64,000 nucleotides of DNA from Candidatus Moraniibacteriota bacterium (GTDB lineage Bacteria; Patescibacteriota; Minisyncoccia; Moranbacterales; GCA-2747515). The notes below the pieces were generated by a model. The model was not told the DNA's origin. It made no database searches and saw only the letters and a program-made list of their open reading frames with translations. Positions 3,021 to 40,469 of this stretch are shown here, piece by piece. The position numbers and the translations under genes were made by a program. Location of the stretch: NCBI GenBank assembly GCA_002747515.1, contig PDPP01000017.1, positions 4,392-68,391 on the forward strand. The letters run 5' to 3'. Position 1 is the stretch's first letter; each line of letters starts with the position of its first letter.

Positions 3021-3240
3021 GCGTATGAAAAAAAATATAAGTCAATACATACTTTACGTGAAAAAAAACTTGCGTAGCAGTATAAAAAATATATGGAATC
3101 ATGATAGAGTTTCTTCTTTTATAAAAAAAAGAAAAAAGCAGATGTACGTCATATATAAAAAATGTGCGAATCAATGTGTATGTAAAAAACAGAAATTATG
3201 TGATGTTGTGAATAAAAAAATACGTGACACGTATCAAGGT

Positions 3241-8940: not shown

Positions 8941-9021
8941 AAAATACTGTATGATAATATCTATGTATTTAATAAGGAATAATTTATAAATTTCTGATAA
9001 AAGAAAAACAAAAAAATTTTT

Positions 9022-11242: not shown

Positions 11243-11379
11243 TTCATATTATTTTTACAAAGATAGGAATATAAAGAGTGAAGAATTTTATATTGTCATT
11301 CCAGCGCAAGTGGGAATTTAGTAAATATAAAATAAAAAATATTTTAAACAATATTGCAGAAGCAAGTTATAAAACATTT

Positions 11380-12954
11380 ATGAGAATTCTTTGGTTTACA
11401 TGGAAAGATAAGACGCATCCACTTGCAGGTGGTGCAGAGGTTGTCGCGAGTGAGCTAGGCAAACGTCTTGTATCTGATGGTCATGAGGTTGTTTTTATTG
11501 TTGGTGGATATAAAAAAAATAAAAAAGCTAGATCAAAAGAAATAATTGATGGTTACACAGTGATCCGTGTCGGTGGACGTTGGAGTGTGTATTGGCAAGC
11601 ATATAGATATTACAAAAAACATCTCAGAGGTTGGGCAGATGTTGTGATTGATGAGATGAATACGATGCCATTTTTCACAAAATATTACATAACAAAAAAT
11701 AAAAACACTCCTACTTGTCATTCTCGTGAAAGAAGAAATCCAAAAGATAAAAAAGATACACCGTGTCATTCTCGTAAAAGCAGAAATCCAGAATATGAAG
11801 AAAACACCTTTTGTCATTCTCGTAAAAGCAGAAATTCAGAACATGAAGAAGCTACCTCTTGTCATTCCCGCGCAGGCGGGAATCCAGAGAATAAAGATGT
11901 CGTTAAAAATCAAAAAAAATCCTTTTGTCACAATCACGAAGCAGAAAATTCACAAAATAAAAATCCACGCCAGTTTCTATTTGTTCACCAACTTTGTAGA
12001 GAGATTTGGTTTTATCAGATGTTTTTTCCACTCAATATTATCGGTTATGTGTTAGAATTTTTTTATCTGCGTTTACTCAATGATCAAGAAGTGATTACCG
12101 TGTCAGAGAGTACAAAAAAAGACCTCATGCGATATGGATTTAAAAAAGATCGTATTCACATTATTTCCGAAGGGATTCAATGTGAACCACTTGCACAATT
12201 ACCTGCAATACATCATGCAAAATATGACACGCCGACTATTCTCTCACTTGGTGCAGTGCGTGCGATGAAGCGTGCAGATCATATTGTCACAGCATTTAAC
12301 ATCCTCAAGTCCACCTCCTCCCACTCTCACAAAAACCTTTCTCATCTCCACGACAACTCTTGTCATTCCCGCGCAGGCGAGAATCCAGAATATGAAGAAG
12401 CTACCTCTTGTCATTCCCGCGCAGGCGGGAATCCAGGGAATAAAGATGTCGTTAAAAATCAACAAAAAACCTGTCAATCTATTCACAAAAATAACAATCT
12501 AAAATATAAACAACAAATCAAAAATGCAAAACTCATCATCGCAGGAGACATACATGATCCATATGCACAAAAAGTACTGCATAATGTCGCAAAATCTCCG
12601 TACAAAAACGATATCACTGTCCTCGGGCGAGTCTCTACAGAAAAAAAATGGGAACTCATGCAAAAAAGCCACCTCATCGCAGTTACCAGTATCAAAGAAG
12701 GATGGGGACTCATCGTCACAGAAGCAGCGAGTCAGGGCACACCGGCAGTAGTTTATGATGTAGATGGACTCAGAGATGCAGTGGAGTGGGGTGATGCAGG
12801 ATACATGACAAAAGACAACACGCCAAAGGCACTGGCAAATGAAATGATACAAGCATTGCAAGATGAAGATAAATATGAGAGAATACGCCAATATGCATGG
12901 CACAAATCACAAAAACTTACTTTTGAAAAAAGCTACAAAGACTTTTTTCTGTGA
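11380..12954 (+). CDS. GT4 glycosyltransferase carrying two in-frame tandem arrays of a degenerate palindromic repeat (possible pseudogene or repeat-tolerant enzyme)
   Basis: The N-terminus MRILWFTWKDKTHPLAGGAEVV and the C-terminus GWGLIVTEAASQGTPAVVYDVDGLRDAVE match a GT-B/GT4 fold. The ORF is open from GTG 11278, but 11278-11379 is itself a degenerate repeat copy, so ATG 11380 is preferred. The interior encodes repeated CHSR(K/A)(S/G)(R/G)NPE peptides derived from the repeat DNA. Confidence 0.55.
   Translation: MRILWFTWKDKTHPLAGGAEVVASELGKRLVSDGHEVVFIVGGYKKNKKARSKEIIDGYTVIRVGGRWSVYWQAYRYYKKHLRGWADVVIDEMNTMPFFTKYYITKNKNTPTCHSRERRNPKDKKDTPCHSRKSRNPEYEENTFCHSRKSRNSEHEEATSCHSRAGGNPENKDVVKNQKKSFCHNHEAENSQNKNPRQFLFVHQLCREIWFYQMFFPLNIIGYVLEFFYLRLLNDQEVITVSESTKKDLMRYGFKKDRIHIISEGIQCEPLAQLPAIHHAKYDTPTILSLGAVRAMKRADHIVTAFNILKSTSSHSHKNLSHLHDNSCHSRAGENPEYEEATSCHSRAGGNPGNKDVVKNQQKTCQSIHKNNNLKYKQQIKNAKLIIAGDIHDPYAQKVLHNVAKSPYKNDITVLGRVSTEKKWELMQKSHLIAVTSIKEGWGLIVTEAASQGTPAVVYDVDGLRDAVEWGDAGYMTKDNTPKALANEMIQALQDEDKYERIRQYAWHKSQKLTFEKSYKDFFL
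11716..11887 (+). repeat. Four tandem 48-nt units (28-nt palindromic core TGTCATTC(C/T)CG...GAAATCCAG plus a 20-nt linker) inserted in-frame in the GT4 gene
   Basis: Cores start at 11716, 11764, 11812 and 11860, an exact 48-nt (16-codon) period. The first three are A/T-mutated variants and the fourth is near-consensus (tgtcattcccgcgcaggcgggaatccag). Confidence 0.8.
12361..12436 (+). repeat. Second in-frame insertion in the same GT4 gene: two 48-nt-spaced copies of the palindromic core
   Basis: The cores are tgtcattcccgcgcaggcgagaatccag (12361) and tgtcattcccgcgcaggcgggaatccag (12409). Low-complexity flanks on either side. Confidence 0.8.
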
Positions 12955-18762: not shown

Positions 18763-18776
18763 TGGTTGGTTTTTTT

Positions 18777-19070
18777 CTGGATTTCCGCTTTTGTGGGAAT
18801 GATGAGGGTATGGTGGGAATTGTTGGATTCCCGCCTCCGCGGGAATGACAGGGGGTATGGGAATGACAAGGGGGACGCGCGGGGGTGACATAGACTATAG
18901 TGGAAACCTCTGGATTCCCGCCTTCGCGGGAATGACACAGTGCGATATAGTGGTAGTTTCTGGATTCCCGCCTTCGCGGGAATGACAGGGGGGTATGGGA
19001 ATGACAAAAGGGGGCGCGGGAATGACAAGGGAGGTGCGGGGTGACGTATGAGATGTGGGGTTTGTAATGT
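18777..19070 (+). repeat. Repeat island A: clustered copies of the 28-nt palindrome CTGGATTCCCGCC(T/C)(T/C)CGCGGGAATGACA with GGGAATGACA(R)GGG sub-repeats
   Basis: Core copies lie at 18824, 18910 and 18960, and a degenerate copy at 18777. The island is GC-rich within an AT-rich genome and the units are 50-95 bp. Confidence 0.8.
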
Positions 19071-19098
19071 TATGTTGTTGAATATATAATGATCTTTT

Positions 19099-19674
19099 AT
19101 GGATATAATGAGAAAACAGAAAAATACGGTTGATTTGCGTGGTGGTGTGTTACGACAAGAGCAGAGGCATCGACATGGCACGCGGCGATCTTTTGATACG
19201 CAAAAGCATGCAAATGCGATATCTCATAGGAAATATATGGATGCGCAATCATATACAGTATCACAGAAGCAACAACAAGAAAGAGTGAAAAAAAATGGGC
19301 AGAATACCAAAAAATTTCAATTATTGCAAAAGAAACATTCTGTTTTATATAATAGTATTGGTGGAGTTGTGTTTTTTTGTGTGATTATAGGTCTTTTTGT
19401 TTTTACGGAGTTGACGAGTATTGATATTTTCTTTTGGACATTTTTTCTGTCGCTTTTTTATTGGCATATTGATAGTCGTGTTTCAATTGGTGGAGCTTTG
19501 GCGTGTCTTTTGGCAATTCCAGTTTTACTTATTGCAGAAAATAACTTTGGATATATCAATGGTGGTGTGTGGGCAGAAGAAGTTGCGGTGTGGGCATATT
19601 TTTTTCTCGTGATTGGTGTGGTGAAACAAATCTATGAATATATATGGGAGTCAAAAAGACTGAAGTCATCATGA
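19099..19674 (+). CDS. Hypothetical protein with a basic N-terminus and C-terminal TM helices, embedded between repeat islands
   Basis: ORF of 191 aa with a hydrophobic C-terminal half and no recognisable motif. The true start may be internal. It could also be a non-genic ORF. Confidence 0.25.
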   Translation: MDIMRKQKNTVDLRGGVLRQEQRHRHGTRRSFDTQKHANAISHRKYMDAQSYTVSQKQQQERVKKNGQNTKKFQLLQKKHSVLYNSIGGVVFFCVIIGLFVFTELTSIDIFFWTFFLSLFYWHIDSRVSIGGALACLLAIPVLLIAENNFGYINGGVWAEEVAVWAYFFLVIGVVKQIYEYIWESKRLKSS

Positions 19675-19688
19675 TGTTTTTTGTGGTT

Positions 19689-19895
19689 CTCTGGATTCCC
19701 GCCTTCGCGGGAATGACAAAGGGGAGCGCGGGAATGACAGGGGGGACGCGCGGGGGTGACATAGGCTATAGTGGAAAACTCTGGATTCCCGCCTTCGCGG
19801 GAATGACAAAGGGGAGCGTGGGAACGACAAAAGAGACAAAGATGATGTTTTTTATAATTATGTTATCCCCGCGAAGGCGGGGATCCAGGAATTTT
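19689..19895 (+). repeat. Repeat island B: two forward palindrome copies (19691, 19781) followed by a ~50-bp module containing the inverted-orientation core (ATCCCCGCGAAGGCGGGGATCCAGG, 19866-19890)
   Basis: Identical in layout to island A units (gacgcgcgggggtgacatagNctatagtggaaa). The island ends 7 nt before the GIY-YIG start codon. Confidence 0.8.
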
Positions 19896-19897
19896 TT

Positions 19898-20182
19898 ATG
19901 AAACAGTATTATGTATATATTTTAGCTAGTCAGAAAAATGGTACTTTGTATATTGGAGTGACGAGTAATTTGCAAAAAAGAGTTTTTGAACATAAAGAAA
20001 AGTTGGTTGCAGGGTTTACAGAAAAGTATAATGTAGATAAATTAGTGTATTTTGAACAAACAGGTGATGTGCAATCTGCACTTTTGAGAGAGAAGCAATT
20101 GAAAAAATGGAATAGGGATTGGAAATTGAAATTAATTGAAGAAAAAAATCCGCAATGGAATGATTTGTATGATTTTTTGTGA
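19898..20182 (+). CDS. Small GIY-YIG domain nuclease (UPF0213/YhbQ-like stand-alone GIY-YIG protein)
   Basis: YVYILASQKNGTLYIGVTSNLQKRVFEHK matches the GIY-YIG catalytic motif. The 94-aa size is typical of stand-alone GIY-YIG proteins. Confidence 0.7.
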   Translation: MKQYYVYILASQKNGTLYIGVTSNLQKRVFEHKEKLVAGFTEKYNVDKLVYFEQTGDVQSALLREKQLKKWNRDWKLKLIEEKNPQWNDLYDFL

Positions 20183-20184
20183 TT

Positions 20185-20512
20185 TTCTGGATTCCCGCAT
20201 GCGCGGGAATGACGAAGTGGACGTGGGAATGACAAGGAGTATAGTGAAAGTCTCTGGATTCCCGCATGCGCGGGAATGACAGGAAGGGTGCGGGAATGAC
20301 ATGGGAGACGTGGGAATAATATGATGTGCGTGAATGAGACGGGGTGTGTGCATGAATGACATGGATTATAGTGAAAGTCTCTGGATTCCCGCCTGCGCGG
20401 GAATGACAGGATGGGTGCGGGAATGACAGGGGAGGGTACGGGAATGACAAGGGGATGTAAGGATGATGTTTTTTATAATTGTGTCATCCCCGCGAAGGCG
20501 GGGATCCAGGGG
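20185..20512 (+). repeat. Repeat island C: three forward palindrome copies (20187, 20254, 20381; loop variant CATG/CTG) plus a terminal ~50-bp module with the inverted core (20486-20510)
   Basis: The island begins 3 nt after the GIY-YIG stop codon. Its terminal module ggatgatgttttttataattgtgtcatccccgcgaaggcggggatccagg is near-identical to 19843-19890 (upstream island B). Confidence 0.8.
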
Positions 20513-23102: not shown

Positions 23103-23933
23103 ATGCAAGAAAAGAAAGTGATTAATGTTATGGCAAGTTTGTGCGTTGTAATCAGTATGATGTTTGCATCAACTGTATTCGCAGCTTTAGAAGATGGGGG
23201 AGAAGAGATAATTGAAATTGGTTATGGGGGTAATGATCCAGCATGTACCATGTATGCTGAACCAGATACAATTAATGCAGGGGGAGGAACAACATTACAT
23301 TGGGATGTAAATGAATATACTGTTCGTGCATATCTTCATCCAAAAGGATCGGGGAGTTGGATGCAGGAAGTGCCACTTGATGGATCATGGTGGATTTCTG
23401 GTATTACAGATAGTCGCGTATATACTTTGACAGTGGAAAATGAAGAAGGTGTCACAGCAACATGTGATGCACCTATTACAGTAAATGAAGGAGTAAATGA
23501 AGAACTAACATGTGAGATGTATGCAGATCCATCAACAATTGCACAGAATGGCGGCACAAATCTCGTGTGGAGTTCTACGGGAAATGTGGTGAATGCAAAA
23601 TTGCATCCAACAGGATCAACGTCATATTTTGCAGATGTGAGCGCAAACGGTTCATGGTGGATTTCTGGCATTTCAAATAATCGCAGTTATAGTGTGACAT
23701 TATGGGATGCACAAGGAAATACAGTGACATGTGATGCACCGATTTCTGTAATAGAGGAACAAGAAGAACCTGTGTGTTATGATTGGGACGGAGATGGCTG
23801 GGGATGGGATGGTGAAAAAGGTTGTAAAGTAGAAGCTGTGACAGAAACTGCTGAGTGCTATGACTGGGACGGAGATGGCTGGGGATGGGATGGTGAAAAA
23901 GGCTGTAAAGTGGAGTCTACCGTACAACATTAA
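23103..23933 (+). CDS. Secreted repeat protein: two ~95-aa Cys-framed repeats plus two near-identical 20-aa C-terminal DGDGWGWDGEKGCKVE repeats
   Basis: A signal peptide is present. Repeats begin C(T/E)MYA(E/D)P(D/S)TI and end TCDAPI(T/S)V. The C-terminal tandem DNA repeats (23774-23833 and 23843-23902) are about 90% identical. Confidence 0.5.
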   Translation: MQEKKVINVMASLCVVISMMFASTVFAALEDGGEEIIEIGYGGNDPACTMYAEPDTINAGGGTTLHWDVNEYTVRAYLHPKGSGSWMQEVPLDGSWWISGITDSRVYTLTVENEEGVTATCDAPITVNEGVNEELTCEMYADPSTIAQNGGTNLVWSSTGNVVNAKLHPTGSTSYFADVSANGSWWISGISNNRSYSVTLWDAQGNTVTCDAPISVIEEQEEPVCYDWDGDGWGWDGEKGCKVEAVTETAECYDWDGDGWGWDGEKGCKVESTVQH

Positions 23934-24057: not shown

Positions 24058-24280
24058 GTGAAAGTTGCATCATTCTCTGACAAAAGTTATCACTTTTAAA
24101 TTCGTTGTGCGACAGAAGGATATGAGAAGAATATTATTGAATTTTTTCAATAATTATTAGAACTCATCGAGTGTAAATGCTGTCATGAAGTCTGCTTTTT
24201 GATAAAAGTGGAGAATTAATGTGGCAACACGAAATATTCGTCCTTAAATTATTTTTTGAGGATTTTTTATTTTTAAAACA
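24058..24280 (+). promoter_or_regulatory. Degenerate duplicate of the ileS T-box leader (paralogous to 33088-33310), probably a non-functional relic
   Basis: About 80% identical over ~230 nt to the ileS leader, including the GA/K-turn region aggatatgagaagaa, the ATC specifier context (aactcATCg), and the terminator hairpin plus T-run. The T-box consensus is damaged: AATTAATGTGGCAACACG versus the canonical AATTAAGGTGGTACCACG. Confidence 0.55.
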
Positions 24281-24305
24281 ATAGGTATAATATTTAAAAA
24301 AGTAG

Positions 24306-24367
24306 AAATAAAAAAGGAAGATTATACACTTACAATACTGTATAAAACTGACATAAAATAAAAAAAT
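24306..24367 (+). pseudogene. 3'-terminal relic of a paralog of the CE4 deacetylase gene (encodes ...KEDYTLTILYKTDIK*)
   Basis: A 39-nt exact match (cacttacaatactgtataaaactgacataaaataaaaaa) to 8906-8944, the last codons and stop of the deacetylase gene. The upstream codons are also similar (KEEYPLT vs KEDYTLT). Confidence 0.6.
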
Positions 24368-24513
24368 GTGTATGTAATTGCACAGAAATAGAGAATGTTG
24401 TACAATATATATCGGAGGGGTGAGTCTCAAAAAAACAAGCGTTGGACAAGGTCGTAGGCGCTAAAGAGAATCAATCTATCCGCGTAAATCAGTTAAGCAG
24501 GTACTTACACGTT

Positions 24514-33089: not shown

Positions 33090-33310
33090 GTGAAAAATGA
33101 TAAAATCCTCTGACAGTGAATATCATCATTGAATTTGTGTGTAGACACAAAAGGATATGAGAAGAACGTTGTTGAAACAATTATTAGAACTCATCGGGTA
33201 AGCCCGTAAACGCTGTAATGAAGTCCGCTTTTTTGTAAGGTGGAGAATTAAGGTGGTACCACGAAATATTCGTCCTTAAATAATTTTTAAGGATTTTTTA
33301 TTTTTATAAA
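33090..33310 (+). promoter_or_regulatory. T-box riboswitch leader, Ile-specific, controlling ileS
   Basis: Stem I GA motif (aggatatgagaagaa). ATC specifier at 33191-33193. T-box sequence AATTAAGGTGGTACCACG at about 33246-33263. Terminator hairpin tccttaaa...ttaagga followed by a T-run ending about 33310, just 9 nt before the ileS ATG. Confidence 0.75.
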
Positions 33311-33318
33311 ACAATAAT

Positions 33319-36258
33319 ATGGCATTTAAAAAAGTAGAGTCAAATCAAAAATTACCAGAAATGGAAAAAGAAATTATCAATGTGTGGAACAAAAATCAAA
33401 CATTTCAAAAAACATTAGAAAATCGTAAAGGTGCAAAGGAATATACATTTTATGATGGTCCTCCATTTGCAACTGGTTTACCGCATTATGGTCATATCGT
33501 GGCAAGTGTATTGAAAGATGTGGTGCCACGGTATTGGACGATGCGTGGTTACTATGTGGAGCGTAAATGGGGGTGGGATTGTCACGGATTGCCAATTGAA
33601 AATATTGTGGAAAAAGAATTGGGCTCAAAAAAGAAAAAAGATATCGAAAAGATGGGCGTGGCGGTATTTAATGAAAAATGTCGTGAAAAGGTTTTGGTTT
33701 ATGTATCTGAATGGGAAAAAACCATAGAACGACTCGGACGTTGGGCAGATATGGAAAATGCATATCGTACGATGGACAGGGATTATATGGAGAGTGTGTG
33801 GTGGGTATTCAAAGAGTTGTGGGATAGGAAGTTAATCTATGAAGATTATCGCTCAATGCACATTTGTCCGCGGTGCGAAACGACATTATCACAACAAGAA
33901 GTTTCAGAAGAGTATCAAAATATTAAAGATTTGTCAGTAATGGCAAAATTTGCACTTGTTGATGAGTTGAATACGTATGTACTTGCATGGACAACAACAC
34001 CATGGACATTGCCGGGCAATGTTGCACTTGCTGTAGGAAATGAAATTACATATGTGAAAGTGGAGAAAAATGAAGAAGGTGATTTTGTGCAATATATTTG
34101 TGCTAAAGAACTTGTTGAAAATATTTTTAAAGATCAAGAATATAAAATTGTTGAGGAATTTTTGGGGTCAGAATTTGTGGGCAAAAAATACCAACCGCTT
34201 TTTGATGTGTACAAAAAAGATGAAAATGTAGAAAATCGGGAAAATGGATGGAAAATTTATGCAGCGGATTTTGTAACAACTGATGAAGGAACTGGTGTGG
34301 TGCATATCGCACCAGCATTTGGTGAAGATGATATGAATCTCGGTCGTGAAAATCATTTACCATTTGTACAGCACGTTGCGATGGATGGAAGTTTTAAAAA
34401 GGAATTGGGTGATTTGGCTGGAAAAAATGTGAAGCCGATTGACAATCATCAAGAAACAGATGTGGAGATTATTAAATATCTCGCAAAAAATGGAACATTA
34501 TTTCACAAGGAAAAATATGAGCATAGTTATCCGCACTGTTGGCGTTGTGATACACCACTGATTAATTACGCAACAACCTCGTGGTTTGTGTCTGTGACAA
34601 AAATCAAAAAACGTATGTTGGAATTGGCAAAAGAGATTAATTGGTCGCCAGAACATATCAAAGAGGGGCGTTTTGGAAAATGGTTAGAGGGCGCACGGGA
34701 CTGGTCAATTTCTCGTCAACGGTTTTGGGCGAGTGTGATGCCGATCTGGGTGTGTGATACGTGTGACAAGAAAATTGTTTTTGGTAGTGCAAAAGAATTA
34801 GAGGATGCGAGCGGGCAACAAATTGATGATCTGCATAAACATATTGTAGATGAAGTGACATTTGGATGCGATGCATGTGAGGGAACAATGAAACGTGTGC
34901 CAGATGTTTTAGATACGTGGTTTGACAGTGGTTCGATGCCATATGCAGGGAAACACTATCCGTTTGAAAATGAGGAGCAATTTGAGCAAAATTTTCCAGC
35001 AGATTTTATCGCAGAGGGTGTAGATCAAACACGTGCATGGTTTTATTATCAACATGTTATTGCAACAGGTATTAAGGATAATCATGCATTTAAAAACGTG
35101 GTTGTTAATGGAATTGTGTTGGCGGAGGATGGTAAGAAGATGAGTAAAAAATTACAAAATTATCCAGATCCAGGTGACATGTTTGAAAAGTATGGTGCGG
35201 ATGCGGTACGTTTTTACTTGATGCAGTCTCCAGTCGTTGCGGCAGAAAACATGAATTTCATTGAGCAAGAGTTGGGTGAGGTTTCGCGGGGGATGTTGCG
35301 TCGGTTGTGGAACAGTTATTCATTTTTTGTGTTGTATGCGTTGGTGGATAAGTGGTCGCCAAAAACTGTCAATCACCAGCCGTCGGTTACTCGTTCTAAC
35401 ATTCTTGACCGATGGATTCTGTCAGAGTTACATGTGTTAATTGGGAATTTCAATACTCATATGGAGGCGTATGAACTGCACAAAGCGGCACGACTATTGC
35501 CACAATTTATCGATGATCTGTCAAATTGGTACATTCGTCGTTCGCGGCGGCGGTTTTGGAAAAGTGAAGATGACGCGGACAAAAACGAGGCATATCAGAC
35601 ACTTTATGAGGTATTGGTGACGATATCAAAAGTGATGGCACCGTTCACGCCGTTTATCACCGAAGAAATTTTTAGAAACTTGACTGACGAAGAATCGGTA
35701 CATCTTACTGATTTTCCCGAAGCAAATGCAAAGCTGATTGACGAGGAACTCAATCAAAAAATGGCAAACACGAGAAAAGCGATTGAAATAGGCTTGTCAC
35801 TGCGTGCACAAAACAGTCTCAAAGTGCGCCAACCACTCGCAATGCTAGAAATTACTGGTGCAGATATTGACACGGAACTTCTGGAACTTATCACAGATGA
35901 GGTGAACGTCAAAGCAGTGAACATCGTGGACAAAATCAATTCTAGTTTCAAAAGCAAAGCAGACGGCACACTGACGGTCGGACTGGATATCGCACTGACG
36001 GATGAATTGAAAAAAGAAGGGCAGATGCGCGAACTCATTCGCCACATCCAGCAAGCACGCAAAAAGGCGGGGCTAGCTATTGACAATCGAATAAAACTAT
36101 GCTATACTGGTAATTCTGAAATTATTAATTCTTTTACAACTGAAATTGCCAAAGAAGTTTTGGCAACAGAAATTGTTCAAGGAGAGCCTGATGCGGAAGC
36201 GTTTTCAGAGTCCATTGCGGTAGGCGATGAAATGCTAACGATTTGGATTGTGAAATAA
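33319..36258 (+). CDS. ileS: Isoleucyl-tRNA synthetase
   Basis: HIGH motif PHYGH, KMSKS motif KMSKKL, zinc-binding Cys pairs (CPRCE; CWRCD; CDTCD). The protein is 979 aa. Confidence 0.9.
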   Translation: MAFKKVESNQKLPEMEKEIINVWNKNQTFQKTLENRKGAKEYTFYDGPPFATGLPHYGHIVASVLKDVVPRYWTMRGYYVERKWGWDCHGLPIENIVEKELGSKKKKDIEKMGVAVFNEKCREKVLVYVSEWEKTIERLGRWADMENAYRTMDRDYMESVWWVFKELWDRKLIYEDYRSMHICPRCETTLSQQEVSEEYQNIKDLSVMAKFALVDELNTYVLAWTTTPWTLPGNVALAVGNEITYVKVEKNEEGDFVQYICAKELVENIFKDQEYKIVEEFLGSEFVGKKYQPLFDVYKKDENVENRENGWKIYAADFVTTDEGTGVVHIAPAFGEDDMNLGRENHLPFVQHVAMDGSFKKELGDLAGKNVKPIDNHQETDVEIIKYLAKNGTLFHKEKYEHSYPHCWRCDTPLINYATTSWFVSVTKIKKRMLELAKEINWSPEHIKEGRFGKWLEGARDWSISRQRFWASVMPIWVCDTCDKKIVFGSAKELEDASGQQIDDLHKHIVDEVTFGCDACEGTMKRVPDVLDTWFDSGSMPYAGKHYPFENEEQFEQNFPADFIAEGVDQTRAWFYYQHVIATGIKDNHAFKNVVVNGIVLAEDGKKMSKKLQNYPDPGDMFEKYGADAVRFYLMQSPVVAAENMNFIEQELGEVSRGMLRRLWNSYSFFVLYALVDKWSPKTVNHQPSVTRSNILDRWILSELHVLIGNFNTHMEAYELHKAARLLPQFIDDLSNWYIRRSRRRFWKSEDDADKNEAYQTLYEVLVTISKVMAPFTPFITEEIFRNLTDEESVHLTDFPEANAKLIDEELNQKMANTRKAIEIGLSLRAQNSLKVRQPLAMLEITGADIDTELLELITDEVNVKAVNIVDKINSSFKSKADGTLTVGLDIALTDELKKEGQMRELIRHIQQARKKAGLAIDNRIKLCYTGNSEIINSFTTEIAKEVLATEIVQGEPDAEAFSESIAVGDEMLTIWIVK
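36080..36108 (+). promoter_or_regulatory. Putative sigma70-type promoter embedded in the 3' end of ileS (TTGACA-N17-TATACT)
   Basis: ttgaca at 36080-36085, a 17-nt spacer, then tatact at 36103-36108. The same segment is repeated at 37042 and 38410 with TTGACA-N17-TATGAT. Confidence 0.5.
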
Positions 36259-36309
36259 TAGGAAATTATAGACAGACAGTAAGAAAAACAGTTAATCAAG
36301 GAGAAAATC

Positions 36310-36969
36310 ATGGAAATTACAGGAAAGCTGAACAAGCTGGATAGTCTTACTCGAGGAGAGGTGGATTCAGTTTTGATTAAAATTGGACATGATGCAGGGA
36401 TGGATGTCTTGGAAGCAATCAGAGCGTATCTTCGCGGTGATCTCATCATTCGGCCCAAGGGGCTATTTCTCAAAAATGACAATGGTCACCATGTATTTAA
36501 AATTTTTGGAGAGAATTATCTTGGCAAGGAGGAAGCAGATCGCATAGATGCAGGTATTCTTCAGATGAATATTGAAGCTTATCAAATTCTGATAAATGAC
36601 GATTACAACAAAAACCATCTTCTTGAAGAAGATGAGGAATACACGATTGTGTTAGTTCCTAGTGATGAAATCACCGAAGGAAGAACAGTGGAAGAATATG
36701 GATTATCTTTTAATTATCAAAAAATGCGTGCCGAAGCCGTTCTTCGTATGCAAGAAATTGTTACTCAAAAACAAATGAAAAAGATGGGTTTTTCTGATAT
36801 TATGGGAGTTCATATGCCAATCAGCACTCTTCGTGGTGATTTCTATTCTCTCGGATTGAGTCGTTGTAATAGTGTCGGTGATGAACACTGTCTCCTTGGT
36901 GCTTATAGTAGGACGTATGATAGCCAGTGGAATAATTTAGCATTTGCATTCTTTGCTCCTGGAGATTAA
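36310..36969 (+). CDS. Hypothetical soluble protein with no recognisable domain, GC-richer than its surroundings
   Basis: ORF of 219 aa with RBS aaggag 8 nt upstream. It follows the ileS stop by 51 nt. Composition is visibly more G+C-rich than flanking genes. Confidence 0.45.
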   Translation: MEITGKLNKLDSLTRGEVDSVLIKIGHDAGMDVLEAIRAYLRGDLIIRPKGLFLKNDNGHHVFKIFGENYLGKEEADRIDAGILQMNIEAYQILINDDYNKNHLLEEDEEYTIVLVPSDEITEGRTVEEYGLSFNYQKMRAEAVLRMQEIVTQKQMKKMGFSDIMGVHMPISTLRGDFYSLGLSRCNSVGDEHCLLGAYSRTYDSQWNNLAFAFFAPGD

Positions 36970-36984
36970 CTTCTGTTCCTTAAG

Positions 36985-37040
36985 TCTTTGCCCTTTGTTC
37001 TTTTTTCACAAAACTGTGAGAGAAGTGCAAAGGGTTTTTT
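36985..37040 (+). terminator. Probable terminator hairpin after the 219-aa gene
   Basis: ccctttg ... caaaggg stem followed by ttttttatt. The loop is long, so strength is uncertain. Confidence 0.35.
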
Positions 37041-37224
37041 ATTTGACAAAAATCACAAAAATTACTATGATGACCAGTCAGATATGAATAGTACCTTTAC
37101 AACTGAAATTGCCAAGGAAGTTTTGGCAACAGAAATAATCAATGGTGAGCCAGATACAAAAGTGTTTTCTCAGTCCATAACACTGGGCGAAGAAAAGCTG
37201 ACGATTTGGATTGTGAAATAATAG
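37035..37224 (+). repeat. Copy 2 of the ileS 3'-end segment (promoter TTGACA-N17-TATGAT at 37042-37070, plus diverged ileS tail codons ending TAATAG)
   Basis: The segment aligns to 36075-36261 at nucleotide and protein level (NSTFTTEIAKEVLATEIINGEPDTKVFSQSITLGEEKLTIWIVK vs ileS NSFTTEIAKEVLATEIVQGEPDAEAFSESIAVGDEMLTIWIVK). ORF-track entry 36988..37221 is this relic, not an independent gene. Confidence 0.8.
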
Positions 37225-37244
37225 GAAAAAATCGGAGGTGTGAA

Positions 37245-37544
37245 ATGAAAAATGAGACAGTAATAATGAGTGTTATTTGTCTTGGTGCTGTGATTTTGCG
37301 CAACACAATTAATCTCGGTGATTTTGTTGTAAATGCAATTTTACGCGATTATTTGTTGGCAGTTATCATCATGTCAGCATTATTTGTGACATGTGAGACG
37401 ATTTTTAGGAAAGAACTTGTTACTAATGCAGTATGGTTACAAGTAAAAGAGGCAATAAGCATGTCTATCTATCTGTTAAGTAGCGGCACTTTGCTTCTTA
37501 TCTGTTTGTGTGCGATACGAATACACACAGGTCCTTTGCTGTGA
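37245..37544 (+). CDS. Small multi-TM membrane protein, member of a local paralog family
   Basis: Starts at ggaggtgtgaaATG (37245). The 99-aa product has 3 TM helices and no known motif. Confidence 0.45.
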   Translation: MKNETVIMSVICLGAVILRNTINLGDFVVNAILRDYLLAVIIMSALFVTCETIFRKELVTNAVWLQVKEAISMSIYLLSSGTLLLICLCAIRIHTGPLL

Positions 37545-37565
37545 ATTATGAAATGGAGGTGTGAA

Positions 37566-37946
37566 ATGGTTCGTCTGAACAAGTTTGATATAGTTCTTAG
37601 TATCGTTTTCTATGGGATTTGTTTCGGTATGTATTTCACTAATTTTGGCGTATCTACAAAAATAGCATTTTTTGTTTTTGTTGCGTTGCTGGTTCTGTAT
37701 GAGTTTACTAATCCAATTGTACATCTGCCAATGCTTACAGTTAAAGCGACTGAAAGAATAAAAATCGGTTCAGTGGTCGTTTTGATTGTTTCGGAAATTT
37801 CCACTTTTGCGTTAATGTTTCTTGATCTCTGTAATTTAGGATACGTGATGCATGTAAGTAATGTGTTGCTTGGATTGGCTTTCGTTCTCATTGTTGTTTT
37901 CATAGTTTCGTGGTTGCAACGGCGGAAAGTCGTAGCATGCCAGTAA
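37566..37946 (+). CDS. Small multi-TM membrane protein, paralog of 38807..39076 plus 39089..39280
   Basis: Starts at ggaggtgtgaaATG (37566). The N-terminal half is similar to the 38807 ORF and the C-terminal half (VSNVLLGLAFVLIVVFIVSWLQRRKVVACQ) to the 39089 ORF. Confidence 0.45.
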   Translation: MVRLNKFDIVLSIVFYGICFGMYFTNFGVSTKIAFFVFVALLVLYEFTNPIVHLPMLTVKATERIKIGSVVVLIVSEISTFALMFLDLCNLGYVMHVSNVLLGLAFVLIVVFIVSWLQRRKVVACQ

Positions 37947-38051
37947 TTACTAGCGAACAAGCAATGGTGGGATTATGTGTATTATCTGGTAGTTTTGCTT
38001 ATGGTGGCAAGTGTTGTTTTGAGATTTTTTGGTTTGTGAGGGAGGTGTAAA

Positions 38052-38354
38052 ATGAATGAAGAAAATATTGAAGGCTGGTTTATTCCATACATCATCCTGA
38101 TTTTTAGTGGGTTAGCTATTATTCTGGGAGGTTGTTTGCATCCAGATTTGTGGTTGTTTAGCAAGATTTTAACAGTTTTGGCTGGATTGCTGATTGTGGT
38201 ACTTTCTTCTGTTAGAGTGTTCGCTAAAAAAAGAGATGTCACACTTGCATGGTTGGACCAAAGAAGTCATTTTGTGAAACGGTTCATGCTGATTTTAGCT
38301 TCAGTTATTCTTGCAATCGAAATTGGAAAAGAGATGTTGGTATATTTTCTATGA
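38052..38354 (+). CDS. Small multi-TM membrane protein (local paralog family)
   Basis: Starts at gggaggtgtaaaATG. The 100-aa product has 3 TM helices. Confidence 0.4.
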   Translation: MNEENIEGWFIPYIILIFSGLAIILGGCLHPDLWLFSKILTVLAGLLIVVLSSVRVFAKKRDVTLAWLDQRSHFVKRFMLILASVILAIEIGKEMLVYFL

Positions 38355-38374: not shown

Positions 38375-38408
38375 TCCGGTTGTATTCACATATATAACCG
38401 GTTTTTTA
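38375..38408 (+). terminator. Rho-independent terminator immediately upstream of the copy-3 promoter
   Basis: ccggttgtattcacatatataaccgg followed by tttttt. Confidence 0.55.
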
Positions 38409-38590
38409 TTTGACAAAAATCACAAAAATTACTATGATGACCAGTCAGATGTGAATAGTACCTTTACAACTGAAATTGCCAAGGAAGTTTTGGCAACGGA
38501 TATCATCAACAGTGAGCCAGATACGGAAGCGTTTTCTCAGTCCATTACACTGGATGATGAAATGCTCACTATGTGGATTGTGAAACAATA
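38400..38590 (+). repeat. Copy 3 of the ileS 3'-end segment (promoter TTGACA-N17-TATGAT at 38410-38438, plus diverged ileS tail ending ...MWIVKQ*)
   Basis: Aligns to copy 2 and to ileS 36075-36261. There is no in-frame ATG, so the tail is a non-expressed relic. Confidence 0.8.
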
Positions 38591-38607
38591 GGAAATGGAG
38601 ACTTAAA

Positions 38608-38805
38608 ATGGAATACAGTGCATACATACAATATATCGGATGGATTTTAATGGCATTTTGGCTGTTTCTTTCTTCTGCTGATGAGGCTTATTGTGAGTGG
38701 AAAGGAATTGTTTTGAGTAAAAAGAGAAAAATGTTTTGGAAAGGAATGTTTTTGCTTTCAGTCATAATAATTTTGGGTGGACATTTTTTGATAACGGAGG
38801 TGTAG
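38608..38805 (+). CDS. Small membrane protein (2 TM)
   Basis: RBS ggagacttaaaATG. The product is 65 aa and hydrophobic. Confidence 0.35.
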   Translation: MEYSAYIQYIGWILMAFWLFLSSADEAYCEWKGIVLSKKRKMFWKGMFLLSVIIILGGHFLITEV

Positions 38806-38806
38806 A

Positions 38807-39076
38807 ATGAATTTTTCGAAAATCAGTTTTATGGTGCCTTACATAATCTTGTTGTGTGGTTATTGCGGTGTACTCGTTTCAAATTTCAGTGCATTTACTA
38901 AGAGTTGTTTCTCTGTTTATGTTGTAGCACTGCTCTTGTATGAGTGGTTTGACCCAGAAAAAACCTACAAAAAAATTTCACCAGAAATGGAATCTTGGTT
39001 ACGGATAATTCTTTGTTATGGAGTTATTATTCTAACAGTTGTCACTTTTGGGTCAGTAATTTATGATTCTCTATAA
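38807..39076 (+). CDS. Small membrane protein, paralog of the N-terminal half of 37566..37946
   Basis: Starts at cggaggtgtagaATG. It shares ...NF(G/S)...TK..F.V.V.ALL.YE(F/W).(N/D)P with 37566..37946. Confidence 0.4.
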   Translation: MNFSKISFMVPYIILLCGYCGVLVSNFSAFTKSCFSVYVVALLLYEWFDPEKTYKKISPEMESWLRIILCYGVIILTVVTFGSVIYDSL

Positions 39077-39088
39077 TGTAGGAGGTGT

Positions 39089-39280
39089 GTGATGCGTGTA
39101 AGTGATGTATTACTCGGGTTAGCTTGCATCCTTTGTGTTATTTTTGCAGCACCGATTTGGCTACAGCAGAAAGTTGTAGCATGTCAGCAATTAGTGAACA
39201 ATCGATGGTGGGGGTGTTTGTATCTCTCAGTGATTGGATTGATTGTTGTGAGTGGTATGTTGAAGTGTTATGGATTATGA
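39089..39280 (+). CDS. Small membrane protein, paralog of the C-terminal half of 37566..37946
   Basis: Starts at taggaggtgtgtgATG. MRVSDVLLGLACILCVIFAAPIWLQQKVVACQ parallels the tail of 37566..37946. The reading frame continues past the point where the paralog has a stop. Confidence 0.4.
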   Translation: MMRVSDVLLGLACILCVIFAAPIWLQQKVVACQQLVNNRWWGCLYLSVIGLIVVSGMLKCYGL

Positions 39281-39725
39281 ATGGATGTGTGTGATGAGTT
39301 AGGATTTGGCTTTTGGACTTTGGTATCTAGGCGATGTTTTTTTCTCAGAACAAAATTTTCTGAGTAAAGTTTCAATAGCATTCTCTATTGAGACACCTTT
39401 GCTAATCCATGTTGTTTTTTTCGTGGAAATGGAAAGAATCTTTTCCATTTGCAAAAACTGTTGTACCGATTTTATTTGGCATGTTTGACATGGGGCGATA
39501 TGTGTCGCTAGTATTGTGCAGTTTGTAGGAGGCTATGTTTATGACTGGTGTAGAAATTTTTATTGCGTGGGGTATTTTTTTTGTATTGATTGGAGTAGCA
39601 GAATTGTGTTGCGGATATCTTTTTTAGAGAAAAAGTAAGGTCTTGTGCATGTAACCCAGTGTTCATAAAAGAATACTGGGTTTTTCTTTTGTTGTGTAAT
39701 TATGGTATGATATGGAGCATTAATA

Positions 39726-40469
39726 GTGTATTGTGTCATTTTTGTGAAACAAAATTATCATGCGATTACGCTTGACAAGCGAGACATAGGTGAAACAGAC
39801 CGTCTGTATACATTTTATACGTTAGAGACTGGTTTGATGCGTGTTTTAGCACGATCAATTCGTAAGATGAATGCAAAACTTCCTATGCAGGTAGAGGATT
39901 TTGTATTGTCTCATATTACTGTAGCAAAAAACTATGGTCGTGGGACACTTGCCGGAGCGGTTGCTGAGGAATATTTTGAGGAATTGCGTATAAATTATGA
40001 TGCATTGATGTGTGTGGATATTGTGCGTAATGTGCTTTTGACAATAATTGAAGAGAATGATAGTGATGAAGATATTTTTGCACTTTTAGTAGAATATTTG
40101 CAAAAAATTAACGCACTTGCAACACAGAAAAAAGAAAAGAATATTTCACAAATGCAGTGGATTACAAATGCATTCCTTATGAATTTTTTTGCATTACAAG
40201 GGTATACGTTTGATGTGTCAAAGTGCTGTGTGTGTAAAAATTCGCTTGAAAAAAAACGTAATGGGTTTAGTGCAAATAGGGGTGGTGTGATTTGTGAAAA
40301 ATGTTTTTCTGGTAATTGGTATTGTTATGTAGATCCAGATACTGTCAAAGCATTGCGTGTAATTCAGACAAATAGATTTTCAACACTGACAAAGGTAATG
40401 ATTCATTCGATTGTGCATAAACAAATGAAAATGGTTGTAGGAGACATTGAGAGATGGGTAATGCGATAG
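39726..40469 (+). CDS. recO: DNA repair protein RecO
   Basis: N-terminal OB-fold region (AITLDKRDIGETDRLYTFYT), C-terminal zinc finger (CCVCKNS...VICEKC). GTG start. Confidence 0.6.
   Translation: MYCVIFVKQNYHAITLDKRDIGETDRLYTFYTLETGLMRVLARSIRKMNAKLPMQVEDFVLSHITVAKNYGRGTLAGAVAEEYFEELRINYDALMCVDIVRNVLLTIIEENDSDEDIFALLVEYLQKINALATQKKEKNISQMQWITNAFLMNFFALQGYTFDVSKCCVCKNSLEKKRNGFSANRGGVICEKCFSGNWYCYVDPDTVKALRVIQTNRFSTLTKVMIHSIVHKQMKMVVGDIERWVMR

What the first reader, a model, noticed from the sequence alone, without database searches (positions are those of the whole stretch)
36310..36969. GC-richer orphan 219-aa gene sits directly behind ileS under the ileS-internal promoter
The ORF has a good RBS, no recognisable domain, and a visibly higher G+C content than the flanking AT-rich genes. 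It occupies the first cassette position of the ileS-tail repeat array, while the later positions hold small TM proteins. The combination of a soluble protein followed by arrays of small membrane proteins resembles an effector/immunity-like layout. The alternative is a horizontally acquired passenger gene.
Basis: partly seen in the sequence, partly recalled or inferred. Interest (0 to 1): 0.55.

Follow-up and report, generated by a model that had tools for sequence, protein, structure and literature searches.

The report
Retroelement-target family protein behind ileS
The "orphan" gene behind ileS belongs to a large, unnamed protein family of tiny candidate-phyla bacteria whose tail end is normally hypermutated by a diversity-generating retroelement, but this copy has no such retroelement nearby and is not part of a toxin/immunity pair.

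Summary
The ORF at 36310-36969 is real. It encodes a soluble 219-aa protein with a good RBS, and no curated library matches it.

It is not an orphan. An exhaustive HMMER search finds 124 representative homologues, and a profile search finds at least 848 clusters, all of them unnamed Parcubacteria/Patescibacteria proteins.

In many relatives the gene is followed by a ~130-nt template repeat, a bAvd gene and a reverse transcriptase. The TR/VR mismatches lie almost only at TR adenines (17/17, 8/8, 22/23, 16/17). The family is therefore a target (variable) protein of CPR diversity-generating retroelements (DGRs).

The window copy has no TR, Avd or RT anywhere in 64 kb. It is most likely a fixed-sequence, DGR-less copy.

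The gene sits 51 nt after the ileS stop with no detected terminator in between. A near-consensus promoter lies inside the ileS tail, and a strong terminator (-27.4 kcal/mol) closes the unit. That terminator insulates the gene from the small-TM-protein units, which have their own promoters.

- **Effector/immunity reading:** not supported.
- **GC claim:** weak. The gene is 38.5% GC against 35.5±3.5%, and ileS is richer. Its codon usage, however, is the most atypical of 38 genes.
- **Passenger-gene alternative:** fits best. The closest ileS relative retrieved (50% identical) is followed directly by recO.
- **Left unexplained:** the three ileS-tail copies form a mosaic that resembles att junctions.

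The parts
36080..36108 (+). Promoter-like site inside ileS codons (TTGACA-17-TATACT, TG before the -10). It lies ~200 nt upstream of the ORF219 start.
   Evidence: 11/12 match. The same hexamers, in the same register, are kept in the two displaced tail copies. Function is inferred, not shown.
36070..36265 (+). ileS 3' tail, which is copy 1 of the 196-nt repeat. It includes the conserved 36-nt P block (36133-36168) with the palindrome TTGCCAA-N7-TTGGCAA at 36146-36166.
36298..36303 (+). Shine-Dalgarno AAGGAG, 6 nt before the ATG.
36310..36969 (+). ORF219 (PID52306.1, CR972_02415). It is a soluble two-domain protein of the CPR DGR-target family.
36322..36444 (+). N-terminal three-helix module (residues ~5-45; LTRGxxDxxLxKIGxDxG...AFLRGDL). 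It is shared with a subgroup of the family and with proteins that have other C-terminal halves.
   Evidence: No PDB or Pfam match.
36811..36966 (+). VR-equivalent region (residues 168-219, from HxPI to AFAF). It corresponds to the stretch that DGRs hypermutate in relatives.
   Evidence: Alignments. TR/VR pairs in relatives. 39/52 NNY codons and adenine depletion.
36990..37041 (+). Intrinsic terminator: a long hairpin followed by a T-run. It ends the ileS-ORF219 transcription unit.
   Evidence: -27.4 kcal/mol, z -5.83, 0 of 200 shuffles fold as well.
37033..37228 (+). Displaced ileS-tail copy 2, with promoter TTGACA-17-TATGAT at 37043-37071.
37245..38354 (+). Unit 2 cargo: three small multi-TM proteins (37245-37544, 37566-37946, 38052-38354). 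Its terminator is at 38376-38401.
38400..38595 (+). Displaced ileS-tail copy 3, with promoter at 38410-38438.
38608..39280 (+). Unit 3 cargo: three small TM proteins, paralogous to unit 2 (TM2 ~ TM5+TM6). Its terminator is at 39653-39682.
39726..40469 (+). recO. In the closest ileS relative retrieved it lies directly after ileS.

Best explanation
ORF219 encodes a soluble protein with no detected export signal. It belongs to a large, unnamed, Patescibacteria-specific family that serves as the variable (target) protein of CPR diversity-generating retroelements.

The protein has two parts: a conserved N-terminal three-helix module and an alpha/beta core. The last ~50 residues of the core (168-219) are the stretch that the retroelement rewrites at template adenines in relatives. 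By analogy with other DGR targets, that stretch is the ligand-binding face.

In this genome the gene has no template repeat, Avd or reverse transcriptase within 64 kb. It is therefore most likely a DGR-less copy with a fixed binding specificity.

It is a passenger inserted between ileS and recO. It is expressed by read-through from ileS plus a near-consensus promoter embedded in the last ~60 ileS codons. A strong terminator closes the unit.

Shown:
- family membership
- the DGR linkage of relatives
- the absence of DGR parts in the window
- the signals that define the transcription unit

Inferred:
- a ligand-binding role
- a cytoplasmic location
- promoter activity
- loss rather than remoteness of the DGR
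For: Homology:
- 124 representatives at E<=1e-3, best 3.1e-30.
- >=848 clusters, all 'hypothetical' and without Pfam domains. The named sources are Parcubacteria, Uhrbacteria, Giovannonibacteria and Wolfebacteria.
- Conserved motifs: NxxGH, LTGxEE, YDxxHRL, HxPIxDxxG and W..AFAF.

DGR linkage of relatives:
- TR, bAvd and RT follow the family gene in L019, L020, L022-L029, L032-L035, L040 and L042-L044.
- The RT matches Pfam RVT_1 at 3.4e-25 and the Avd matches bAvd at 2.1e-11.
- The RT is 33% identical to Bordetella phage Brt, E 2e-52.
- TR/VR mismatches at TR adenines: 17/17, 8/8, 21/22, 22/23 and 22/23; 16/17 and 15/18.

ORF219 itself:
- The VR-equivalent region carries the family's VR composition: 39/52 NNY codons (p 1e-4) and adenine 22% against 34% in the rest of the gene.
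- AF2 with the family alignment gives pLDDT 91.4 and pTM 0.80.
- No RT, Avd or TR is present in the window.
- Other DGR-less copies exist (L012-16, L018, L038, L039, L041), and L017 has an RT remnant.
- The Logan contig runs through the VR-equivalent region unbroken and identical.

Expression signals.

Insertion between ileS and recO.
Against: - Only 64 kb of a 106-kb contig, and of an unknown total genome, could be read. A DGR elsewhere that targets this gene in trans is not excluded.
- The NNY and adenine-depletion signature is shared by DGR-linked and DGR-less members, so it says nothing about present activity.
- No function of any family member is known.
- The predicted fold has no Foldseek match in PDB or BFVD. 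It has no profile similarity to Mtd. The 'C-type-lectin-like binding face' is therefore an analogy, not a result.
- Promoter and terminator are consensus and energy predictions only.
Confidence: 0.72

Rival explanations
1. ORF219 is still an active DGR target. The reverse transcriptase and template repeat lie outside the 64-kb window and act on it in trans.
For: - The family is a bona fide DGR target.
- The VR-type codon and adenine signature is intact.
- Only part of the contig and genome was readable.
- From general knowledge of DGRs, remote targets are known.
Against: - No TR-like copy of 36701-36990 and no RT or Avd occurs in 64 kb.
- In every DGR-linked relative examined, the TR lies within ~0.5 kb of the gene.
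- An independent assembly passes through the region without a break or a variant.
- The 3' end of the VR-equivalent region is AT-rich, whereas DGR-linked relatives have a GC-rich end.
Confidence: 0.12
2. ORF219 is a soluble effector or toxin, and the small TM proteins downstream are its immunity partners.
For: The layout is a soluble protein followed by arrays of small membrane proteins. The displaced-tail array resembles orphan toxin/immunity stacking.
Against: - No toxin, secretion or defence domain is found.
- The terminator at 36990-37041 and separate promoters uncouple ORF219 from the TM genes.
- No TM-protein relative occurs near any homologue in 31 family loci, or in the 8 ileS loci also searched.
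- Homologues sit next to DGR parts or unrelated housekeeping genes.
Confidence: 0.03
3. This reading is about how the gene got there and is compatible with the best explanation. ORF219 is the cargo of the most recent of several small integrase-less inserts. Each insert entered at a conserved palindromic site (P) inside the ileS tail. Each brought its own replacement ileS tail and an outward-facing promoter, and pushed the older tail and cargo downstream.
For: Mosaic of the three copies:
- P block: 94-97% identical in all three, with a perfect TTGCCAA-N7-TTGGCAA palindrome.
- U arm: 97.5-100% identical between copies 2 and 3, but ~50% identical to ileS.
- D arms: roughly equidistant at 76-81%.

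Other evidence:
- dN/dS of the D arms is 0.22-0.26, meaning they diverged as working coding sequence.
- Homology ends 7 nt after the stop codon.
- Cargo of units 2 and 3 is far more diverged (57-66%) than their U-P arms.
- The ileS 3' third has anomalous GC3.
- A similar clpB-tail duplication lies next to a family gene in L038.
Against: - No recombinase is found in the window.
- The U arm keeps the -35/-10 hexamers in the same register as ileS. That argues it descends from ileS sequence, as tandem duplication would give.
- Units 2 and 3 carry paralogous cargo, as expected from in-situ duplication.
- The L038 duplication shows no such mosaic.
- No other copy of P or U was found in IMG/VR.
- The counts behind dN/dS are small.
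Confidence: 0.2
4. ORF219 is a decaying, functionless remnant of a former DGR cassette.
For: - No DGR parts remain.
- Several family motifs are degenerate in ORF219: YDxNHRL has become YNKNHLL and PRIRE has become LRMQE.
- L017 shows that DGR cassettes do decay next to family genes.
Against: - The reading frame is intact and aligns over its full length to P0002 (residues 5-217 against 2-215).
- The near-invariant residues G59, G72, E149 and H168 and the AFAF motif are kept.
- The AF2 model is confident.
- The RBS, promoter and terminator are strong.
Confidence: 0.08

Closest known systems
Target (variable) proteins of Patescibacteria/CPR DGRs ('clade 2' DGRs of Roux et al. 2021, PMC8144416; first surveyed by Paul et al. 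2017, not readable here)
   Same: - Size of ~210-230 aa, with no TM segment, signal peptide or known domain.
- The VR lies at the extreme C-terminus.
- The taxon is Parcubacteria/Patescibacteria.
- Homologues of ORF219 are flanked by TR-bAvd-RT with adenine-specific TR/VR differences.
[quoted passage not shown]
   Different: - The window copy has no TR, Avd or RT within 64 kb.
- It combines the N-terminal three-helix module of one subgroup with the core of another.
- It sits directly behind ileS.
C-type-lectin-fold DGR variable proteins (Mtd of Bordetella phage BPP-1, TvpA, AvpA)
   Same: A C-terminal VR with AAY-rich template codons. The scaffold tolerates massive variation. The presumed role is ligand binding.
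   Different: - No sequence-profile similarity to Mtd (hhalign probability 0.3%).
- The confident AF2 model has no Foldseek hit in PDB (best E 2.0) or BFVD.
- No Pfam CLec, FGE or DUF1566 match in 29 members.
Displaced ('orphan') C-terminal modules downstream of cdiA/rhs polymorphic toxin genes (from general knowledge)
   Same: Repeated copies of the 3' end of an upstream gene, each followed by different small genes. The newest copy is attached to the full-length gene.
   Different: - The anchor gene is the essential housekeeping gene ileS, not a toxin gene.
- The repeated piece is the conserved tail, not a variable toxin domain.
- Each displaced copy has its own promoter and terminator.
- No toxin or immunity domains are present.
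Integrative elements that target the 3' end of a gene and carry a replacement 3' end (tRNA- or gene-3'-end-targeting islands); integrase-less Xer-dependent modules (IMEX, pdif modules) (from general knowledge)
   Same: attL/attR-like junctions. A short conserved palindromic core is shared by all copies. The arms have different histories on either side of the core.
   Different: - No integrase is present in the window.
- The units are only ~1-1.4 kb.
- The element-side arm still resembles ileS in register.
- The site was not tested in relatives.

Membership tests
DGR variable (target) protein family | Homology to proteins whose C-terminal region is a VR paired with a TR that differs at template adenines | tested here: met
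   E 3.1e-30 to 1e-3 against 124 representatives. tblastn of ORF219 against DGR-linked loci gives E 1e-20 to 1e-25. Adenine-specific TR/VR mismatches are 8/8 to 22/23.
DGR variable (target) protein family | Own cognate template repeat (a near copy of the gene's 3' end) in the neighbourhood | tested here: not met
   blastn (word 7) of 36701-36990 against the whole window finds only itself. The next best hit is 37 nt, E 0.044.
DGR variable (target) protein family | DGR reverse transcriptase and accessory Avd nearby | tested here: not met
   tblastn with two DGR RTs and a bAvd against the 64-kb window gives a best E of 0.48. The rest of the contig and genome could not be reached.
DGR variable (target) protein family | VR-type composition (NNY codons, adenine depletion) in the C-terminal ~50 codons | tested here: met
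   39/52 NNY against a 48.7% background (p 1e-4). Adenine is 22% against 34%. The same pattern appears in DGR-linked and DGR-less relatives, so it marks the family, not present activity.
C-type lectin fold VR domain (Mtd/TvpA type) | Structural similarity of the VR-bearing domain to solved CLec-fold variable proteins | tested here: inconclusive
Effector/toxin-immunity module | Recognisable toxin, secretion or defence domain in the soluble protein | tested here: not met
   Pfam, NCBIfam, PHROGs and PADLOC: nothing at E<=0.01.
Effector/toxin-immunity module | Effector and immunity genes in one operon and co-inherited in relatives | tested here: not met
   A terminator of -27.4 kcal/mol lies between ORF219 and the TM genes, and each TM unit has its own 11/12 promoter. 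No TM-protein relative occurs in 39 loci, 287 kb.
Site-specific cassette array (integron-like / 3'-end-targeting element) | A conserved recombination core bounding every unit, with arms of different ancestry on either side | tested here: inconclusive
   The P block is 94-97% identical in 3 copies and holds a perfect palindrome. The U and D arms show discordant identities. Tandem duplication plus conversion could also give this pattern.
Site-specific cassette array (integron-like / 3'-end-targeting element) | A cognate recombinase | tested here: not met
   tblastn with a tyrosine integrase gives a best E of 1.4. A trans-acting enzyme elsewhere in the genome could not be tested.
Horizontally acquired passenger gene | Absent from the syntenic site in relatives, with atypical composition | tested here: met
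   In L001 (Saccharibacteria), ileS is followed 10 nt later by recO. This rests on a single, distant comparator. Codon usage ranks 1st of 38 for atypicality, at the 3.2th percentile. GC alone is not distinctive.

The most novel reading that the evidence does not exclude
The ileS tail holds a 36-nt palindromic attachment site used by small integrase-less cassettes. Each cassette carries its own replacement ileS tail and an outward promoter. The ileS-recO gap is then a cassette-stacking platform anchored in an essential gene, and ORF219 (a DGR-target-family protein detached from its retroelement) is the most recent cargo. A second, independent novel reading is that the family's VR-bearing domain is a fold with no solved relative, which would be a non-C-type-lectin scaffold for DGR hypervariation.
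Probability: 0.2. Interest if true: 0.7.

Novelty: new member of a known kind. Interest (0 to 1): 0.38.

Why it matters
The result replaces an 'orphan effector' label with a specific placement. ORF219 belongs to what may be one of the larger uncharacterised Patescibacteria protein families: at least 848 clusters, no Pfam model, and a confident predicted fold with no solved neighbour. That family is the substrate of CPR diversity-generating retroelements.

DGR-less copies like this one matter for two reasons:
- They show that the scaffold is kept and expressed without hypermutation.
- They offer fixed-sequence members for structure and ligand work. The open question there is what non-membrane CPR DGR targets bind.

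The ileS-tail mosaic, and the clpB parallel in another genome, hint at a way small genomes add cargo behind essential genes without silencing what lies downstream. That hint remains unproven.

Tried and rejected
- **Single-sequence AF2.** It failed (pLDDT 35), and only the family alignment gave a usable model.
- **Word-indexed homology search.** With the single protein it found only itself. This would have wrongly confirmed 'orphan'.
- **PDB sequence-profile searches.** Searches with the whole family and with the N-terminal module gave nothing significant. Pfam on the N-terminal module gave nothing.
- **Walking the 106-kb contig.** The window-end proteins and the NCBI contig are not in the index; only a 1057-nt Logan contig is.
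- **The search for related loci with the broad alignment.** The viral collection held no family member and no copy of the P or U sequences.
- **Rfam and tRNA scans of the window.** Both were empty.
- **ileS-tail repeats as a TR/VR pair.** Considered and rejected, because the differences between copies are not adenine-specific.
- **A conserved leader RNA structure in the tails.** Three sequences gave no useful covariation.
- **GC content as evidence of foreign origin.** Rejected as too weak.

Full report
**1. The observation**

The ORF at 36310-36969 (+) is real. It encodes 219 aa, starts with ATG, and has AAGGAG 6 nt upstream. It lies 51 nt after the stop codon of a 979-aa IleRS, which matches Pfam tRNA-synt_1, Anticodon_1 and DUF5915.

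The protein is identical to PID52306.1 (CR972_02415) of a Candidatus Moraniibacteriota MAG. An independently assembled Logan contig reproduces 36006-37062 at 100% identity, so the ileS-ORF junction is not a binning or assembly artefact.

The protein has no hydrophobic segment. The six small ORFs further downstream each have 1-4 TM-like segments and strong GGAGGTG ribosome-binding sites. Pfam, NCBIfam, PHROGs and PADLOC give nothing.

The composition claim is weak. The gene is 38.5% GC against a gene mean of 35.5+-3.5%. That is the 78th percentile of equal-sized windows, and it is below ileS at 39.8%. The real compositional outlier is the last third of ileS, where GC3 is 0.42-0.52 against 0.243+-0.061 for other genes. 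ORF219 does, however, have the most atypical synonymous codon usage of 38 genes. It falls at the 3.2th percentile of 219-codon windows.

**2. The protein is not an orphan**

The word-indexed search found only the protein itself. The exhaustive HMMER search of 1.84 billion representatives found 124 homologues at E<=1e-3 and 22 at E<=1e-10. The best non-self hit is 3.1e-30 at 41% identity over the full length. A profile of the closest subgroup then retrieved at least 848 clusters. All are called 'hypothetical', all lack Pfam domains, and the named sources are Parcubacteria, Patescibacteria, Uhrbacteria, Giovannonibacteria and Wolfebacteria.

The alignment shows a ~45-residue N-terminal module followed by a core. 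The N-terminal module reads LTRGxxDxxLxKIGxDxG...AFLRGDL. The core carries the motifs NxxGH, LTGxEE, YDxxHRL, YxIVLxPG, HxPIxDxxG and W..AFAF. G72 and H168 are nearly invariant.

With this alignment AlphaFold2 gives a confident model, with pLDDT 91.4 and pTM 0.80. The single sequence alone had given pLDDT 35.

**3. What the family is**

In metagenome loci that encode relatives, the gene is followed by three things:
- a second, partial copy of its last ~130 nt
- a minus-strand four-helix protein
- a reverse transcriptase

Pfam calls the accessory protein bAvd (2.1e-11) and the polymerase RVT_1 (3.4e-25). The RT is 33% identical to Brt of Bordetella phage BPP-1, E 2e-52.

The downstream copy (TR) and the gene's 3' end (VR) differ almost only where the TR has adenine. 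The counts are 17/17, 8/8, 21/22, 22/23, 22/23 and 16/18. The subgroup that shares ORF219's N-terminal module behaves the same way. In Giovannonibacteria CP066687.1 (L040) 16 of 17 mismatches lie at TR adenines, and in Uhrbacteria (L043) 15 of 18 do, in both cases with bAvd and RT adjacent.

This is the defining signature of a diversity-generating retroelement. The family is therefore a DGR variable (target) protein. It fits the description of CPR 'clade 2' DGR targets in Roux et al. 2021: cellular, aquatic, and without any recognisable TM or conserved domain.

**4. The window copy**

No RT, Avd or TR-like copy of the gene's 3' end exists anywhere in the 64 kb. Other family members are also DGR-less within the sequence available. 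These are L012-16, L018, L038, L039 and L041. L017 keeps only a C-terminal RT fragment right after the gene, which shows that the cassette can decay.

The VR-equivalent region of ORF219 (residues 168-219) keeps the family's VR composition. It has 39 of 52 NNY codons (p 1e-4) and 22% adenine against 34% in the rest of the gene. DGR-linked and DGR-less relatives look alike in this respect, so the signature marks ancestry, not activity.

The Logan assembly passes through the region without a break or a variant. I therefore read ORF219 as a fixed-sequence, DGR-less copy. I leave about 12% for an active DGR elsewhere in the genome, which I could not reach.

**5. Expression and the link to the TM genes**

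Three signals define the transcription unit:
- A TTGACA-17-TATACT site, preceded by TG, lies inside ileS at 36080-36108.
- The consensus scan of this interval lists no + strand terminator-like site between ileS and ORF219.
- A long hairpin plus T-run at 36990-41 follows ORF219. Its energy is -27.4 kcal/mol, z -5.8.

Each TM unit then starts with its own 11/12 promoter, at 37043-37071 and 38410-38438. Each ends with its own terminator, at 38376-38401 and 39653-39682.

None of the 39 fetched loci (287 kb; 31 of them carry a family homologue, the other 8 are ileS loci) encodes a relative of the TM proteins. ORF219 has no toxin or defence domain. The effector/immunity reading is not supported.

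**6. How the gene came to be there**

In the closest ileS relative retrieved (Saccharibacteria L001, 50% identity), recO starts 10 nt after ileS. The 3.5 kb between ileS and recO in the window is therefore probably added material, although this rests on one distant comparator.

That material is organised by three copies of the ileS tail. Anchored on the invariant sequence TTTACAACTGAAATTGCCAA, the copies form a mosaic:

| Segment | Length | Identity between copies |
|---|---|---|
| U arm (upstream; T-run, promoter) | 62 nt | 97.5-100% between copies 2 and 3; ~50% to ileS, yet the -35/-10 hexamers are in the same register |
| P block (palindrome TTGCCAA-N7-TTGGCAA) | 36 nt | 94-97% in all three |
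| D arm (downstream, to the stop) | 100 nt | 76-81% in every pair |

The D arms have dN/dS of 0.22-0.26, so they diverged as working coding sequence. Homology stops 7 nt after the stop codon.

The cargo of units 2 and 3 is paralogous (TM2 ~ TM5+TM6) but only 57-66% identical. ORF219's unit is unrelated to either.

This pattern looks like attL/attR junctions left by successive insertions at P, each insertion bringing its own ileS tail. Tandem duplication with conversion of U-P is the rival. No recombinase is present in the window, and I could not examine relatives. I leave this unexplained, at roughly 20% for the cassette model.

There is a parallel in L038. There, ~340 nt of the clpB 3' end are duplicated around an inserted gene, and a family member follows the displaced copy.

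**7. Mechanism proposed**

ORF219 is a soluble binding protein with no detected export signal. Its C-terminal ~50 residues form the specificity surface that DGRs diversify in relatives, and here that specificity is frozen. It is transcribed with ileS, and probably also from the promoter inside the ileS tail.

Family membership, DGR linkage in relatives, absence of DGR parts in the window, and the sequence signals are shown. The binding role, the cellular location and the promoter activity are inferred.

**8. Comparison with what is known**

ORF219 is a new, DGR-less member of a known kind, the CPR DGR target proteins.

**9. Verdict**

The main interpretation is not supported, and the 'passenger gene' alternative is favoured. 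Interest is moderate. The gene itself is an ordinary member of a catalogued but uncharacterised family. The family's unmatched fold and the ileS-tail mosaic are the parts worth a further look.

Noticed in passing
window 36070-36265, 37033-37228, 38400-38595: The three ileS-tail copies form a mosaic. A 36-nt block with a perfect palindrome (TTGCCAA-N7-TTGGCAA) is conserved in all three. The upstream arm is near-identical only between copies 2 and 3. The downstream arms are equidistant (76-81%) with dN/dS ~0.25. The pattern resembles att junctions and is unexplained.
   Followed up: partly
window 35119-36078 (last third of ileS): GC3 is 0.42-0.52 against 0.243+-0.061 in other genes, a far stronger compositional anomaly than ORF219 itself. 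The best ileS relatives among GTDB representatives are Saccharibacteria, not Parcubacteria. This may reflect a recombination or HGT tract.
   Followed up: partly
window 37245-38354 and 38608-39280: The two small-TM-protein units are diverged paralogues (TM2 ~ TM5+TM6; 57-66% nt identity). Their leader and tail repeats are 91% identical overall, and 98-100% identical in the promoter-bearing part.
   Followed up: partly
window 18775-20510 (+) and 11715-12446 (opposite orientation): A family of at least 10 short hairpin repeats (CTCTGGATTCCCGC-CTTC-GCGGGAATGACA), REP/MITE-like. Some copies lie within or next to the GT4 gene at 11278-12954. A small GIY-YIG ORF (~19880-20113, Pfam 3.5e-16) sits among them.
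   Followed up: no
window 24205-24306 vs 33237-33338; 8891-8953 vs 24312-24374: Shared 60-100-nt sequences (77% and 89% identical) lie upstream of unrelated genes, including the region just before the ileS start. They may be common promoter or leader elements. No Rfam family matches them.
   Followed up: no
L038 3988-4287 and 5438-5737 (JGI Ga0675941_000234): The clpB 3' end (~340 nt, 92% identical) is duplicated around an inserted 292-aa repeat protein. An ORF219-family gene, a GIY-YIG ORF and glyS follow the displaced copy. This is the same tail-duplication architecture as behind ileS.
   Followed up: partly
L017 8118-8337: Only a C-terminal fragment of a DGR reverse transcriptase remains directly after a family gene (P0126). 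This is a decayed DGR cassette.
   Followed up: partly
L027 1148-3479 and 6001-8363; L042-L044: One contig carries two complete DGR cassettes, each with a family target. In Uhrbacteria the DGR plus its target is flanked by a tyrosine integrase, Fic and an AEP primase, which suggests carriage on a mobile element.
   Followed up: no
window 345-3020 and 3025-5910; 23103-23933: Two tandem paralogous PMT+GH8 genes lie side by side. A 276-aa ORF carries internal CYDWDGDGWGWDGEKGCKV repeats and has no Pfam match.
   Followed up: no
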